Positions 1 to 4,207 of a stretch of 64,000 nt of DNA are shown in pieces (positions within the stretch are counted from its first letter, which is position 1; each line of letters starts with the position of its first letter). The stretch lies in assembly GCA_964270895.1 (NCBI GenBank), contig OZ185442.1. One strand, 5' to 3'. A program made the position numbers. The stretch comes from Podarcis filfolensis (taxonomy: Eukaryota).

Positions 1-3000
1 TTAGTTTGTTTTCGGTTGTTAGTTTGTTAATGTGGCTAATATTGTAGATTAAAAGTGCTGTAGTGCTTTGTGAATCTTATAACATGACCTGTGTGGTGGC
101 TGTGCTGTTTAGCTTATTTTTTTTAGTTGTTTCGTTAATAGTGTTTTCTAGAAGGTGCTTGTTTTACTGATTATTTGTTAATTATTCTATACAGTGGTAC
201 CTCAGGTTAAGTACTTAATTCGTTCCGGAGGTCCATACTTAACCTGAAACTGTTCTTAACCTGAAGCACCACTTTAGCTAATGGGGCCTCCCGCTGCCAC
301 CACACCATTTCTGTTCTCATCCTGAAGCAAAGTTCTTAACCTGAAGCACTATTTCTGGGTTAGCGGAGTCTGTAACCTGATGCGTATGTAACCCGAGGTA
401 CCACTGTAATTGTGGTGTTCTATCATGTTATTGTCATTGATTGTTTGTGAGCCACGTTGTGACTCATGTGAGTGAAAAGCAGCATAGAAAATGAAATGAA
501 CTCACTCCTGTAAGGTGGAGCCTACCTCTGACAGGGAGATTATGGGCCTTCCTTTCTTCCCAGGGGTCACAGTAGTACTGGCTCATGGATCTCACAGTCG
601 CTTGGCCCACCACAGGCTTAAATCCAAACTCTCTGTGGTCTATCACCTTCAGTTCGATAGGAAGCGCATAATCTTCATCCACAGGCAGGTACTAAGAGAG
701 ATCAGGAGGGGCTGCATGAGGTTCTTCCAGGAGAGGAACGCCTGGGGATCCATTTCAGGGATGATGAGACAAAGACAGCTGTGCACATACTGTCATGCTG
801 TCCAAGGGAGGAGATGACACCTCTAAGGTTTCAGTATAGCTAGTAACTAAAAAGATGCCTATTTAAATGAGCATGCCTGGCCTAAAGCTGCTTGCTTAGA
901 TAAGCATTTGTGGCTCTTGACGACACACGCTACCAGTTTGGCTAGAGGCAGGGCTGGCCCAAGACATTTTGTCACCTGAGGCAAACCAGAGAATGGCATC
1001 CCCTCTCCTCCCACGAGGGAAGAAAGGGTGAGAGAAGATCTACATCTGGAACAAGGGTGGGAGGAGACCAGCAGTGCCTCCTGTTCACTAAGATCGCCAT
1101 ATGGGACAGCTGAATATTCCTGCATTGCAGGGGGCTTGGCTAGATGATCCCATGGGTCCCTTCCAACTCTACAATTCTATAAGATTCTAAGAAGCTACTG
1201 TGGAGGTGGCATGGGAGGCCTGCTGAGGAGGCAGCAGATCCAGCCCCCAAGGAGCACGCTGCAAGAGAAAGTATAGCTAGTAAAGGAGACATGAGGCAAA
1301 AGGTCACAGTGAAAATGTGGATTGCAAAATCTGATTAGCAAACTCTAAAATGGTGGAGATGATGGACTTCCGGGTTGGCGCCTCCAGGCAATGGCGGAGT
1401 TCCTCCGATCGGGAGGAATTTGCTCCGTGGAAATCAGGGTCTGACCGCCACGGCGAAGGCGGAGACCCACTGAAATCACAGGCGGGAGAAGCTTGTGAAC
1501 CTGGGATTCGGCTGGCACCTTTTGCGCCTCCCCTACTCGTGGGGAAACCCTGATTTGGGGATCCGGAGCGAAGTGGGGTGAGCGGCGCGGTGCTTCAAAT
1601 TGACTGCTTCTTTCATGGAGTGAAGCTGCATCGCTGTTGCCGGAGAGCGCTGACTTTTTCCTGTGGACAATTTGACTTTAAACAACTACCCATGAGTAGA
1701 ACGGAAAATTGGATCTTTAAATTTATTAATTTGGCATCGAAACGGGAAGGTTTTAAACAGGAAGTCCGCCTTCCTCTTTTGTAAATAGATTGAAGCAAAG
1801 ACGTTGCAAGTTAAAGCCTTGGAAAGTCTTTTGTAAAGGATTAAATCTCCATCGGTTAAAACTATTAAACCCCCCTTGGAAGCAGGAGAAGAGGGGGGAA
1901 ATTTTGGACCTAGCGAGCCTGCAGGAGAGAGTGAAAAATCAAATTACCACTGCTCTGAACCTGGAAACGGGCTGCCAGTAAGATTGACGTCTTGGGAGAG
2001 TTCATTGACTGTGAACAGAAAGCATGTTGACAGATGGCTAAATAAGAGAAATACATTGTTTCCATGGTCCCCTTCTGCGTTTAAAAAGGAGGAAAAGTGA
2101 AAATTGAAACTAACTTTATAATTTAAATTGTGTTTGAAAGGATTGATACAAGTGGAGACTGGTTCCCTCTAGAGGGAGCTTTTGAAACTGTTACAAGAGT
2201 GGAGCTGGGGTTTTTCCAGCTGCAAGATAAGAACTGTGAGAATCAGAGATTGACCTTGGATTTTAAGAATGTTGACAGAAGGAGCCTTAGTGACTGTATT
2301 ATGTAAGATAAGCTATTCGTTGGAACAGCTCCACAAGAAGACGGATGTTATGACTACTAAACTTGAGAACTTGGGACAAAAAGTTATTAATTTGGGACAA
2401 AAAGTGATCATCAATACAGAAATTGTTCAGGACTTGACACAGGAACCTACTTTGACAGGACAAACTGGGGAGAAAACAAAGGAGAAAGTTGTTGTTGTCG
2501 AACCTAAAGTAATACAAGTGGGAGCCCCAGCCTTACAGAGGCAAATCGAGGACTATAAGTGGAGGCCTTTTATGAATGAATATAGAAAAAGTCAGAATTT
2601 GAAGATTGGAGCCCTGCTTGGACTGGAGAAGGAAGGTTGGATAGACTCCTTCATGCAGGGATTTACTGACCTTTGGGTCCTGAATCTGGGTCAGGAGGTG
2701 ATTGGAGTTGTGGGGGCCTTTGGATCTGGAGGAGCTTTGAAACATGATTTGAGAGATTGTATGGACCTTGGTTCTAGCTGTGGAGAGTTGGCTGGTCTGT
2801 CGAGAGGGAATGGGGGCATGGTTGGGTCGCCCCCCCCCGAGACCTGCTCTTCAGCATCTTCAGCATCAAAGAATATGAAGAAAAACTGCAGAAGGGACTT
2901 GGAGAAGATTTAAGAGCCTCGGACAGAAGATCTCCAGGTTGATGAACTATATGGAATGGACGGAAATGACTGGCAGAATCCGAGACCAGGGAGAAGAGAT

Positions 3001-4207
3001 GGTGGAGAAAGATTGGGAAAGTTTAAAGTTTATATATAGAAATATTGTAAAATTAATGAGTGTTAGAAAATTGTTGGAATGAAACTTTATGGCTTTAGTA
3101 GAAATGTTATAAGGGGTTAAGTATAAATAAGCACTTTAGTATTAATGGAAATTAAGGTTAAAAATATGTTAAGATATTCATAATGATAAAAATAGAGAAA
3201 GATGGAAAGGAATTGCTGAAACAAGTAACAGAAGTGGAATACAAAAAGGGAGGTGTGAGGGAATAAGGGAATGAAATAAGGGAATGAAAGATAGAGTAAT
3301 GAAATGGTATGGTATATGTTTTTAAATTGTTGTTGTTTTGTTTTGTTTTGTTTAGTATGTTAAGGTTGTGTTTTGTATTGTTTATATATTGTATTGTTTC
3401 TTCTTTTTTTCTTTTTTCTTCTTTGTTCTATTTTGCCTTTTTCTCTCGCCTTTTTTCTTCTTTTTTCTTTTCTTGTAAGTCTTAAAAGTAATAAAGATTA
3501 TTTTAAAAAAATGGTGGAGATGATGATGATTACTGGAGGAGAGGTTAGTTTCATCTCAAGTCTTAAGATTTGCCCTTGGAAACTGTCTCTGCCATATGCT
3601 AGGGGCCCACTCACCACTTTCATGAGATAGATATTGATTGGAAAATTGGAGTGCTCTTGCAGATTCCTGATGACTGGCGTCTGAAGCGTTTCTCCTCCAC
3701 ACTCTATGATGAGACTCGGATTGCTGATGGCCAGCAGATTGTAGGTCTTCATGTCCCGCAGGCCCCAAGCCAGGATCTGTGGGAACATCGTGATAAATAT
3801 TTATAAAAGCAACAGCTCAGCAGAAAGTGGGGCCACAGGGCCTGAGGCTCTGCTTTCTGGATTGGTTGCAGGGTTGGACCAATCCATCCATTTTACTTCC
3901 CCTGAACTTTTGAAGAGTTAAATGATAATTGTGGAGTTTACACCCCCCCACGTGCAATCTTTTTAATTCATGATGTTTTATAATGCTTTATTCTCTCCCC
4001 CCCCCCCATGCATGCTGTAAGCCAGTGTTCCCCAACCTTGGGCCTCCAGCTGTTTTTGGACTACAATTCCCATCATCCTTGACCACTGGTCTTGCTAGCG
4101 AGGGATGATGGGAGTTGTAGTCCAAAAACAGCTGGAGGCCCACTGCTGTTGGGGAACACTGCTGTAAGACACCCAGAGTGGCTGGGGAAACCCAGCCAGA
4201 TGGGCAG

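What the first reader, a model, noticed from the sequence alone, without database searches (positions are those of the whole stretch)
1365..3507. TSD-flanked 2.1-kb half-L1-like element: 5'-complete, ORF1-like ORF intact, ORF2 almost entirely absent
Seen in sequence: an 18-bp TSD brackets a unit with about 900 bp of 5'UTR, a stop-free 214-aa coiled-coil ORF, only the last ~45 codons of L1 ORF2 (frameshifted), a 3'UTR and AATAAA. The first ~600 bp align with the L1 at 48876 and the ORF2 tail aligns with the L1 at 8456-8907. Established: L1 copies usually lose their 5' end, and ORF1-only HAL1 elements are known from mammals. Inference: both termini, TSD and poly(A) signal are intact, so this short RNA may itself have been retrotransposed. 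That would make it a non-autonomous squamate L1 derivative keeping its own diverged ORF1p and using the L1 RT in trans.
Basis: partly seen in the sequence, partly recalled or inferred. Interest (0 to 1): 0.72.

Follow-up and report, generated by a model that had tools for sequence, protein, structure and literature searches.

The report
Lizard half-L1 retrotransposon, shrunken ORF1
This is a 2.1-kb cut-down copy of a lizard LINE-1 jumping gene that kept its promoter end, a shrunken first gene and its tail but lost the copying enzyme, so it must borrow that enzyme from full-length relatives; this kind of element is well known in mammals and is seen here in a lacertid lizard.

Summary
An exact 18-nt target-site duplication (1347-1364 and 3508-3525) brackets a 2143-nt unit. 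The unit has a 904-nt L1 5'UTR, a 214-codon ORF, the last ~42 codons of L1 ORF2 (broken), a 3'UTR, AATAAA and a short A run.

The ORF has no Pfam, PDB or word-index match. An exhaustive phmmer search links it to squamate L1 ORF1p (E 6e-14). The model of that ORF1p matches the human L1 ORF1p trimer by fold.

The ORF is not an intact ORF1p. It starts at an internal Met, lacks about 40 residues of the RRM and part of the C-terminal domain, and ends 37 codons early. In this copy its last ~35 codons are frameshifted at a C9 run.

Five other proteins, one annotated in Podarcis lilfordi, share these deletions. Three of them also share the C-terminal end that runs into the ORF2 tail. They separate from canonical ORF1p at 100/99 support. 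The junction is therefore a family trait, not a deletion at this locus.

Best reading: a young insertion of a HAL1-like, ORF2-less L1 lineage of lacertids, mobilised in trans.

DNA copy counts, dN/dS and Repbase/Dfam could not be checked. It is a new member of a known kind, of moderate interest.

The parts
1347..1364 (+). Left target-site duplication (18 nt)
   Evidence: Exact repeat of 3508-3525. The bottom strand reads ...CCATTTT/AGAG, which is close to the L1 endonuclease preference TTTT/A (preference recalled, not from a call).
1365..2268 (+). L1 5'UTR (904 nt). The first ~330 nt are CpG-rich and promoter-like.
   Evidence: 75% identity to 48896-49368, with both copies starting at GGACTTC. 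CpG observed/expected is 0.82 in 1365-1694, against 0.25 for the window and 0.85 for the first 330 nt of the L1 at 48876. An ATGGCGG box lies at 1391 and at 48900; its likeness to a YY1 site is recalled. There are 6 upstream ATGs with short ORFs.
2269..2913 (+). 214-codon ORF, a shrunken ORF1p derivative (coiled coil plus remnants of RRM and CTD)
   Evidence: phmmer E 6.6e-18 to 2.2e-05 to 8 proteins. hhalign of the half-lineage profile against the canonical ORF1p profile gives probability 99.3, E 1.4e-20, with residues 1-192 aligned to canonical 50-285 and a 40-column gap. No Pfam, PDB or word-index hit.
2830..2838 (+). C9 homopolymer run where this copy leaves the family's reading frame
   Evidence: tblastn places P0004 16-172 in one frame (2314-2811) and 182-212 in another (2838-2939). 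P0011 and P0012 behave the same way.
2839..2942 (+). Family-frame C-terminus of the ORF (read out of frame in this copy), ending at TGA 2940-2942
   Evidence: The translation of 2802-2942 ends ...KEYEEKLQKGLGEDLRASDRRSPG*. It is 74% identical to the end of P0011, 65% to P0012 and 53% to P0004. 2865-2918 matches canonical ORF1p P0002 residues 79-96, E 0.003.
2922..2932 (+). Junction interval between the ORF1 3' region and the ORF2 tail
   Evidence: ORF1 nucleotide homology to the L1 at 49815-49960 runs to about 2921. ORF2p homology starts at 2933.
2933..3066 (+). Remnant of the last ~42 codons of L1 ORF2, with a 1-nt deletion near 3014 and a premature stop
   Evidence: tblastn to residues 1202-1242 of 1244 of the Podarcis muralis RT-domain proteins P0015, P0023 and P0028. 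79% nucleotide identity to 8858-8723. Stop TAG at 3064-3066.
3067..3507 (+). 3'UTR (26% GC, T-rich simple repeats), AATAAA at 3490-3495, short A run
3508..3525 (+). Right target-site duplication (18 nt)

Best explanation
The unit 1365-3507 is a young insertion of a HAL1-like ('half-L1') non-autonomous LINE-1 lineage of lacertid lizards.

Shown:
- It has a complete L1 5' end, an ORF derived from L1 ORF1, only the last ~42 codons of ORF2, an L1 3'UTR with a poly(A) signal, and an exact 18-nt TSD at a TTTT/A-like site. The short form itself was therefore inserted by target-primed reverse transcription.
- The same shortened ORF architecture occurs in other lacertid-derived proteins.

Inferred:
- An RNA is made from the CpG-rich internal promoter, polyadenylated after AATAAA, and copied into the genome by ORF2p supplied in trans by full-length Podarcis-type L1s (ORF2p of about 1244 aa with EN and RT).
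- The lineage has kept its ORF open under relaxed but real selection.

More speculative:
- The product has kept the heptad-repeat helix but lost much of the RRM and CTD. It may therefore act by multimerising, with itself or with the autonomous element's ORF1p, rather than by binding RNA as a full ORF1p does.

This copy carries a frameshifted C-terminus. That may be a real mutation or a homopolymer assembly error.

The confidence given is for the shown and inferred parts together. For the architecture and family status alone I would say about 0.85, for selection on the ORF about 0.6, and for the multimerisation role about 0.3.
For: Structure and insertion:
- Exact 18-nt TSD; 2 of 30 simulated windows held any 17-mer pair.
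- The 5' end coincides with the start of a second L1.
- No EN or RT remains: only ORF2p residues 1202-1242 match.

ORF identity:
- phmmer over 1.84 billion representatives gave 8 hits at E<=0.001, including the full ORF1p-type proteins P0006 (E 6.4e-14) and P0010.
- The P0006 model (pLDDT 61) has human L1 ORF1p (2YKO, 2YKP, 2YKQ, 2LDY) as all of its 10 best Foldseek PDB matches, E 5e-10 to 1e-8.
- hhalign of the half-lineage profile against the canonical profile: probability 99.3, E 1.4e-20.

Family rather than single locus:
- P0004, P0007, P0008, P0011 (annotated in Podarcis lilfordi) and P0012 share the internal start and the 40-residue gap.
- P0004, P0011 and P0012 also share the ...DLRASDxRxPG end, which in the window stops at a TGA lying in ORF2-tail sequence.
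- In the tree, 6 half-type rows separate from 5 canonical rows at 100/99 support.

Youth of this copy:
- 18/18 TSD identity implies at most 8.3% divergence at 95%.
- CpG observed/expected is 0.82 in the promoter region.

ORF maintenance:
- Subfamilies are only 30-40% identical in protein, yet each is open from the same Met.
- Neutral simulation at 0.23 substitutions per site (about 61% amino-acid identity to the start) left 0.45% of ORFs stop-free.
- With indels added, 1 of 20000 ORFs stayed open.

Trans partners exist: 16 of 18 candidates matched the neighbouring L1 tail, 4 of them 1244-1246 aa with EN and RT domains, all Podarcis.
Against: - No DNA of any other copy could be seen, so the shared junction rests on protein C-termini only.
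- Those proteins come from gene predictions, which by construction show only open frames. P0011 could be a spliced model.
- Half-lineage branches are longer than canonical ones (0.05-1.37 against 0.16-0.50), as expected if constraint is weak. P0008 matches the element in three different frames, so decayed copies exist.
- The ORF's model is poor (pLDDT 40, no strands), so no fold or function is shown.
- ORF length alone is not significant (7 of 100 simulated windows).
- This copy's C-terminus is frameshifted.
- The A tail is only 3-7 nt long.
- No copy other than this one lies in the window.
Confidence: 0.7

Rival explanations
1. A full-length L1 inserted here and later lost ORF1's end plus nearly all of ORF2 through a deletion at this locus.
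For: Internal deletions of L1 copies are common. The other L1 in the window (48876 onward) is itself heavily deleted and rearranged. No second DNA copy of the junction was seen.
Against: The further deletions inside the ORF recur in proteins that are only 30-40% identical to this ORF. These are the internal start, the 40-residue RRM gap, the shortened CTD and the end at ...RxPG followed by a stop. Those proteins form one group against canonical ORF1p at 100/99 support. A private deletion cannot explain this.
Confidence: 0.04
2. A family of bipartite, ORF2-less L1 derivatives exists, but the ORF is a decaying relic with no role. Only the 5' promoter and the 3' end matter, and open frames are seen only because protein databases list open frames.
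For: Branches are long and the fold is degenerate. Half of the RRM is lost. P0008 is spread over three frames and this copy is frameshifted. ORF-absent bipartite non-autonomous LINEs are a known class (PMC5786205, passage read).
Against: Neutral simulation keeps an ORF of 190 codons or more from the same ATG in 1 of 20000 runs at the divergence needed. The same applies to a master lineage without selection. Yet the window copy, P0004, P0011 and P0012 are all open from the homologous Met. L1 family copy numbers in the one lizard studied are tens to hundreds (PMC3787681, passages read), too few for such survivors by chance.
Confidence: 0.2
3. A one-off product: an aberrant L1 RNA (spliced, or deleted by template switching) was retrotransposed once, and the similar proteins elsewhere are independent accidents.
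For: Spliced L1 RNAs that retrotranspose (SpIREs) are known in human (recalled, not from a call). The junction interval 2922-2932 is too short to tell its origin.
Against: Independent accidents would not share four separate deletions and the same stop. The half-type proteins also form one group at 100/99 support.
Confidence: 0.05
4. The ORF is a host gene, a domesticated ORF1p derivative, rather than part of a mobile element.
For: P0011 is annotated as a hypothetical protein in a genome. A domesticated ORF1p gene (L1TD1) exists in mammals (PMC4161310, passages read).
Against: The ORF sits between an L1 5'UTR and an L1 3' end inside one TSD. It lies antisense in an intron of a ferlin gene. Its relatives are diverged paralogues, not one conserved orthologue.
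Confidence: 0.01

Closest known systems
HAL1 (half-L1) families of mammals (Smit 1999; Bao and Jurka 2010; known to me only through passages in PMC5753468, PMC3627910, PMC13756887 and PMC8535693; the 2010 paper itself was not held)
   Same: It is an L1-derived, non-autonomous element that keeps the 5' end and promoter and an ORF1-derived ORF, and has no ORF2. It is presumed to be mobilised by L1 ORF2p in trans. The ORF is kept open over long divergence, as reported for guinea-pig HAL1 (29-44 Myr, PMC3627910 passage).
   Different: The host is a lacertid lizard, and it derives from a squamate L1 lineage, so its origin is independent. Its ORF is not a whole ORF1p: about 50 N-terminal residues, 40 residues of the RRM, part of the CTD and the last 37 codons are gone. 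No DNA copy count or age distribution is available.
ORF1-present bipartite non-autonomous LINEs of other clades: HeT-A (Jockey clade) and Ag-Sponge (CR1 clade), as grouped in PMC5786205 (passage read)
   Same: An internal deletion leaves the 5' and 3' parts plus one Gag/ORF1-like protein. That paper proposes that such proteins multimerise with the autonomous partner's protein, which is the mechanism I favour here.
   Different: Different LINE clade and host.
Canonical squamate L1 ORF1p (P0006, P0010; C-terminal remnant in the window at 49692-50003)
   Same: Homologous over the coiled coil, the first half of the RRM and remnants of the CTD.
   Different: Canonical proteins are 356-362 aa with a predicted complete RRM (beta-alpha-beta-beta-alpha-beta) and CTD. 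The window ORF has 214 aa, no predicted strands, and 35% identity.
Spliced integrated retrotransposed elements (SpIREs) of human L1 (recalled, not from a call)
   Same: An L1 copy with a clean internal deletion, flanked by a TSD because the shortened RNA itself was retrotransposed.
   Different: SpIREs, as I recall them, are sporadic dead-end products. Here a diverged lineage shares the deletion. Splice signals at the junction could not be assessed.

Membership tests
L1-clade LINE derivative | The 5' end is homologous to an L1 5'UTR and starts at the same nucleotide. | tested here: met
   75% over 480 columns to 48896-49368; both start at GGACTTC. That second element carries an L1 ORF1 C-terminus and an ORF2 EN domain.
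L1-clade LINE derivative | The 3' end is homologous to the L1 ORF2 C-terminus and 3'UTR, with a poly(A) signal, an A run and a TSD. | tested here: met
   Residues 1202-1242 of the 1244-aa Podarcis EN+RT proteins; AATAAA at 3490; 18-nt TSD. The A run is only 3-7 nt.
HAL1-type (ORF1-only, non-autonomous L1) | Lacks the ORF2 endonuclease and reverse transcriptase. | tested here: met
   tblastn with three full ORF2p sequences finds only the last ~41 residues in the element. No Pfam domain was found in the two ORFs of the element that were scanned.
HAL1-type (ORF1-only, non-autonomous L1) | Encodes ORF1p. | tested here: inconclusive
   The ORF is homologous to ORF1p but covers only part of it. The 40-residue RRM gap, the shortened CTD and the missing N- and C-termini, together with a pLDDT-40 model, leave ORF1p function open.
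HAL1-type (ORF1-only, non-autonomous L1) | Amplified as a family of its own: many copies share the deletion junction and have independent TSDs. | tested here: inconclusive
   At protein level, 5 other sequences share the architecture, 3 of them up to the same end, and they split from canonical ORF1p at 100/99 support. No eukaryote DNA collection was open, so copies and TSDs could not be counted.
HAL1-type (ORF1-only, non-autonomous L1) | Coding capacity of the ORF is maintained over time. | tested here: inconclusive
   ORFs remain open at 30-40% identity, against 1 of 20000 under neutral simulation. There is no DNA for dN/dS, and protein databases list only open frames.
L1 ORF1p, coiled coil-RRM-CTD type (Pfam Transposase_22) | Match to the Pfam Transposase_22 profile. 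| tested here: not met
   No Pfam family at E<=1 for the window ORF. None of the 8 relatives, including the full-length P0006 and P0010, matched Transposase_22 at E<=0.1. The profile therefore misses this whole squamate lineage.
L1 ORF1p, coiled coil-RRM-CTD type (Pfam Transposase_22) | Fold: a long coiled coil followed by an RRM and a CTD. | tested here: not met
   Met for the canonical relative P0006: all top 10 Foldseek hits are human L1 ORF1p, and 2w7a (the RRM) gives TM 0.67. Not met for the window ORF: only an N-terminal helix, no strands, pLDDT 40. That model is too weak to count as proof of loss.

The most novel reading that the evidence does not exclude
A long-lived lacertid lineage of ORF2-less L1 parasites has whittled its ORF1 down to little more than the trimerisation helix, yet selection keeps it open. 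What a half-L1 needs from its own ORF1 would then be entry into the autonomous element's ORF1p assemblies by co-multimerisation, or simply being translated, and not RNA binding by an RRM and CTD. This would be the first HAL1-type lineage described outside mammals and a natural minimal-domain experiment on ORF1p.
Probability: 0.25. Interest if true: 0.62.

Novelty: new member of a known kind. Interest (0 to 1): 0.45.

Why it matters
- Half-L1 elements are the main natural evidence that ORF1p is needed in cis while ORF2p can be borrowed. In the passages I could read they are described only from mammals.
- An independent squamate lineage would show that this parasitic strategy arises repeatedly wherever L1 is active.
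- A version that lost half of the RRM but stayed open would narrow down which part of ORF1p such a parasite needs.
- On the practical side, these ORFs are being annotated as hypothetical proteins in lizard genomes (P0011), and Pfam's ORF1p profile misses the whole squamate lineage. Repeat libraries and gene sets for lacertids would benefit from naming it.

Tried and rejected
- Pfam on the ORF and on the 46-aa tail ORF: no family at E<=1.
- PDB by sequence with the ORF: one chance-level hit, E 0.63.
- Word-index protein search with the ORF alone: 258 candidates, none at E<=0.01.
- ESM Atlas: no usable hit.
The sources and copy numbers of P0003-P0010 stay unknown.
- AlphaFold2 of the window ORF with 6 aligned sequences: pLDDT 40. 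I did not send it to Foldseek because matches of such a model mean nothing.
- Complex prediction (two copies of canonical P0003 52-190 plus the window ORF 1-125), meant to test co-multimerisation: the queue was full. The job was accepted, lost on the remote machine, and the tool was then declared unavailable. There is no result of any kind.
- A paralogous empty site for the insertion: none. The left flank matches only a short dispersed repeat and the right flank matches nothing.
- A second half-type copy in the window: none.
- A TSD for the L1 at 48876: none of 10 nt or more.
- Upstream remnant of the canonical N-terminal 50 codons: none found by tblastn at E<=1.
- Rfam on 800-4200: nothing inside the element.
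- Splice-site origin of the junction: the 11-nt interval is too short to judge.
- Literature: Bao and Jurka 2010 is not held. One search was wasted on mathematical 'half-line' papers. Searches found no reptilian HAL1. Only 2 papers hold HAL1, reptil* and retrotranspos* together, and the passages I read in them concern mammals.
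Full report
**What is there**

The window is lizard DNA and is not taken for human. The L1 3' fragment at 8728-8904 (minus strand) is 73-90% identical to 16 proteins named by their sources as Podarcis muralis (13) or Podarcis lilfordi (3), out of 18 candidates. The window lies inside a ferlin gene on the minus strand. FerI, FerA and FerB matches lie at 36337-36735, 19759-20043 and 17692-17991, and the best solved relative of the FerI piece is dysferlin. 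I looked at that gene only ORF by ORF and built no joined model. The element sits on the plus strand, that is, antisense in the gene.

**Check of the observation**

- An exact 18-nt direct repeat lies at 1347-1364 and 3508-3525. In 30 Markov-simulated windows, only 2 held any 17-mer pair at a distance of 500-7000 nt. Here the pair falls exactly at the first base of L1 similarity and right after the A run.
- The first 480 nt match the L1 at 48896-49368 at 75%, and both copies begin at GGACTTC. This argues that it is the true 5' end of the RNA.
- The first 330 nt have a CpG observed/expected ratio of 0.82, against 0.25 for the window and 0.85 for the other L1.
- The ORF 2269-2913 has 214 codons.
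- 2933-3055 corresponds to residues 1202-1242 of the 1244-aa Podarcis ORF2p, and nothing else of ORF2 is left. The remnant has a 1-nt deletion and a stop.
- AATAAA lies at 3490 and is followed by a short A run.
- The bottom strand of the target reads TTTT/AGAG. This fits the L1 endonuclease preference as I recall it.

**What the ORF is**

There is also no PDB match, no word-index homologue among 258 candidates and no Atlas lead. ORF length alone is weak evidence, since 7 of 100 simulated windows reach 219 codons.

The exhaustive phmmer search settled the matter, with 8 proteins at E<=0.001 and 5 at E<=1e-10. Two of them (P0006, 356 aa; P0010, 362 aa) end in the same C-terminal motif as the ORF1 remnant of the window's other L1 (P0002). 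Pfam misses these as well. However, a model of P0006 (pLDDT 61) shows a long helix followed by an RRM-like and a CTD-like unit. Its 10 best Foldseek matches in the PDB are all human L1 ORF1p, at E 5e-10 to 1e-8. The TM-scores are low (0.21-0.27 on the query) because the long helix is placed differently; the RRM alone (2w7a) gives 0.67 on the target. So these proteins are the ORF1p of this squamate L1 lineage, and the window ORF is their homologue.

**How far it is from an intact ORF1p**

Profile-profile alignment puts residues 1-192 of the ORF on canonical positions 50-285 (probability 99.3, E 1.4e-20). There is a 40-column gap that removes what the P0006 model shows as the third strand, second helix and fourth strand of the RRM. 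The ORF starts at a Met that 3 of 4 canonical proteins also have internally, near residue 50-52. No trace of the upstream 50 codons was found.

The last part of the family's ORF is read in another frame in this copy. The proteins P0004, P0011 and P0012 switch frame between 2811 and 2838, where a run of nine C lies. In that other frame the translation ends ...GEDLRASDRRSPG and stops at TGA 2940-2942. It is 74%, 65% and 53% identical to the ends of P0011, P0012 and P0004.

ORF1 nucleotide homology to the other L1 runs to about 2921, equal to residue 96 of the 133-residue P0002 remnant. ORF2 homology starts at 2933. The junction therefore lies in 2922-2932, and 37 ORF1 codons, the inter-ORF spacer and 1201 ORF2 codons are missing.

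The model of the ORF itself is poor: pLDDT 40, with only helix 4-56 at 52-65 and no strands. In residues 4-60, 13 of 17 heptad a/d positions are hydrophobic. The canonical profile's coiled-coil part weakly matches trimeric adhesin coiled coils (E 6e-4).

**One locus or a family**

No eukaryote DNA collection was open, so I could not count copies. At protein level the answer is still fairly clear.

- P0004 (212 aa), P0011 (201 aa, 'hypothetical predicted protein', Podarcis lilfordi), P0012 (196 aa), P0007 (174 aa, on a 998-nt contig) and P0008 (123 aa, 5 contigs) share the internal start and the RRM gap.
- Three of them share the early end just after PG.
- In the window, that stop codon lies in sequence that aligns with the ORF2 tail. 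Canonical ORF1p runs on for 30-40 more residues.
- A maximum-likelihood tree of 11 rows (227 of 398 columns kept; P0003 cut to 1-190 and P0009 to 165-422 because the rest of each is not ORF1p; P0002 left out) separates the 6 half-type rows from the 5 canonical rows at 100/99 support.
- The window ORF is only 30-40% identical to the half-type proteins that align over most of its length, and 51% to the fragment P0008 over 74 residues. These are old subfamilies, not copies of this locus.

**Is the ORF kept by selection?**

This copy is young. The 18/18 TSD bounds its divergence at 8.3% at 95%, and its CpGs are not decayed. Its sequence therefore reflects an active source element.

To reach the observed identities neutrally, each lineage needs roughly 0.23 substitutions per site. 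In simulation, 0.45% of ORFs then stay stop-free. With indels at one tenth of the substitution rate, 1 of 20000 keeps 190 codons or more from the same ATG. L1 families in the one lizard studied have tens to hundreds of copies (PMC3787681, passages).

Against this stand several points. The half-type branches are longer than the canonical ones. P0008 is spread over three frames. This copy is frameshifted. The proteins come from gene predictions, which show only open frames. I conclude that constraint is relaxed but real, and I mark this as inference.

**Mechanism**

Shown:
- an L1-type insertion of the short form;
- no enzyme of its own.

Inferred:
- transcription from the CpG-rich 5' end, which carries a box at 1391 shared with the other L1 that I recall as YY1-like;
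- polyadenylation after AATAAA;
- trans-mobilisation by ORF2p of full-length Podarcis L1s, of which 4 with EN and RT domains were among the hits.

Speculative:
- the product acts through its coiled coil, as PMC5786205 proposes for HAL1, HeT-A and Ag-Sponge (passage read). The complex prediction meant to probe this never ran.

**Comparison and novelty**

The element works like mammalian HAL1. In the passages I read, HAL1 is described as encoding only ORF1p, as having arisen several times in mammals and as 'found throughout mammals' (PMC5753468; PMC13756887). Its guinea-pig ORF was kept for 29-44 Myr (PMC3627910).

Searches of the held library found no reptilian HAL1. The founding paper (Bao and Jurka 2010) was not held, supplements were closed, and Repbase and Dfam could not be consulted, so prior cataloguing is not excluded.

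I file it as a new member of a known kind. Its distinctive trait is the shrunken ORF1.

Noticed in passing
window 48876-51533 and 54199-55125: The 'L1 at 48876' is a badly rearranged copy. It has a 5'UTR, then only the ORF1 C-terminus (49692-50003, no ATG in that frame), ORF2p residues 1-108 (51210-51533), and then residues 1014-1240 (54199-54881) ending in an (AAAT)n-like tail. No TSD of 10 nt or more was found. Its 5'UTR-to-ORF1 deletion is a second, different internal deletion of an L1.
   Followed up: partly
window 49960-50961 (+): A 333-codon stop-free frame (P0001) lies between the ORF1 remnant and the EN remnant. It has no Pfam match, ends in a Cys/His-rich motif, and looks like the C-terminal part of another LINE's ORF2 inserted into the L1. 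The resemblance is by eye only.
   Followed up: no
window 17692-36735 (-): Exon-sized ORFs with FerB, FerA and FerI domains. The FerI piece is closest to dysferlin (E 1.3e-8) and then myoferlin. The half-L1 lies antisense in this ferlin gene.
   Followed up: partly
window 4033-4138, 24648-24720, 41683-41788, 43337-43409: A dispersed palindromic repeat family. The copy at 4049-4132 matches Rfam mir-5408 on both strands below threshold (54 bits against a gathering score of 90). It is probably a MITE-like hairpin repeat.
   Followed up: no
window 190-396 (inverted), 5450-5698, 15544-15792: Three copies of a ~250-nt repeat at 93-97% identity, one of them inverted, so a young short interspersed repeat.
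   Followed up: no
protein P0009 (422 aa, from the representative library; source unknown): The N-terminal 135 residues carry RING and B-box domains (Pfam E 1e-12 and 6e-11). Residues ~165-422 are a canonical squamate ORF1p coiled coil-RRM-CTD. This is either a gene-model artefact or a TRIM-ORF1p fusion, which would recall TRIM-Cyp type restriction factors.
   Followed up: no
protein P0003 (340 aa, source unknown): An ORF1p N-terminus (46-50% identical to the window ORF over about 126-133 residues) is joined to a stretch that matches the window's minus strand at 56730-56933, where ORF2p residues ~775-871 also match. It is another internally deleted L1 or a chimeric gene model.
   Followed up: no
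window 2848-2867: A perfect 9-nt tandem duplication (2.2 copies) lies inside the ORF's C-terminal part. It is in frame and gives a repeated FSI in the family frame.
   Followed up: no
window 48445-48500 and about 52190-52290: Two (TAA)n microsatellites about 3.75 kb apart flank the 5' piece of the rearranged L1.
   Followed up: no
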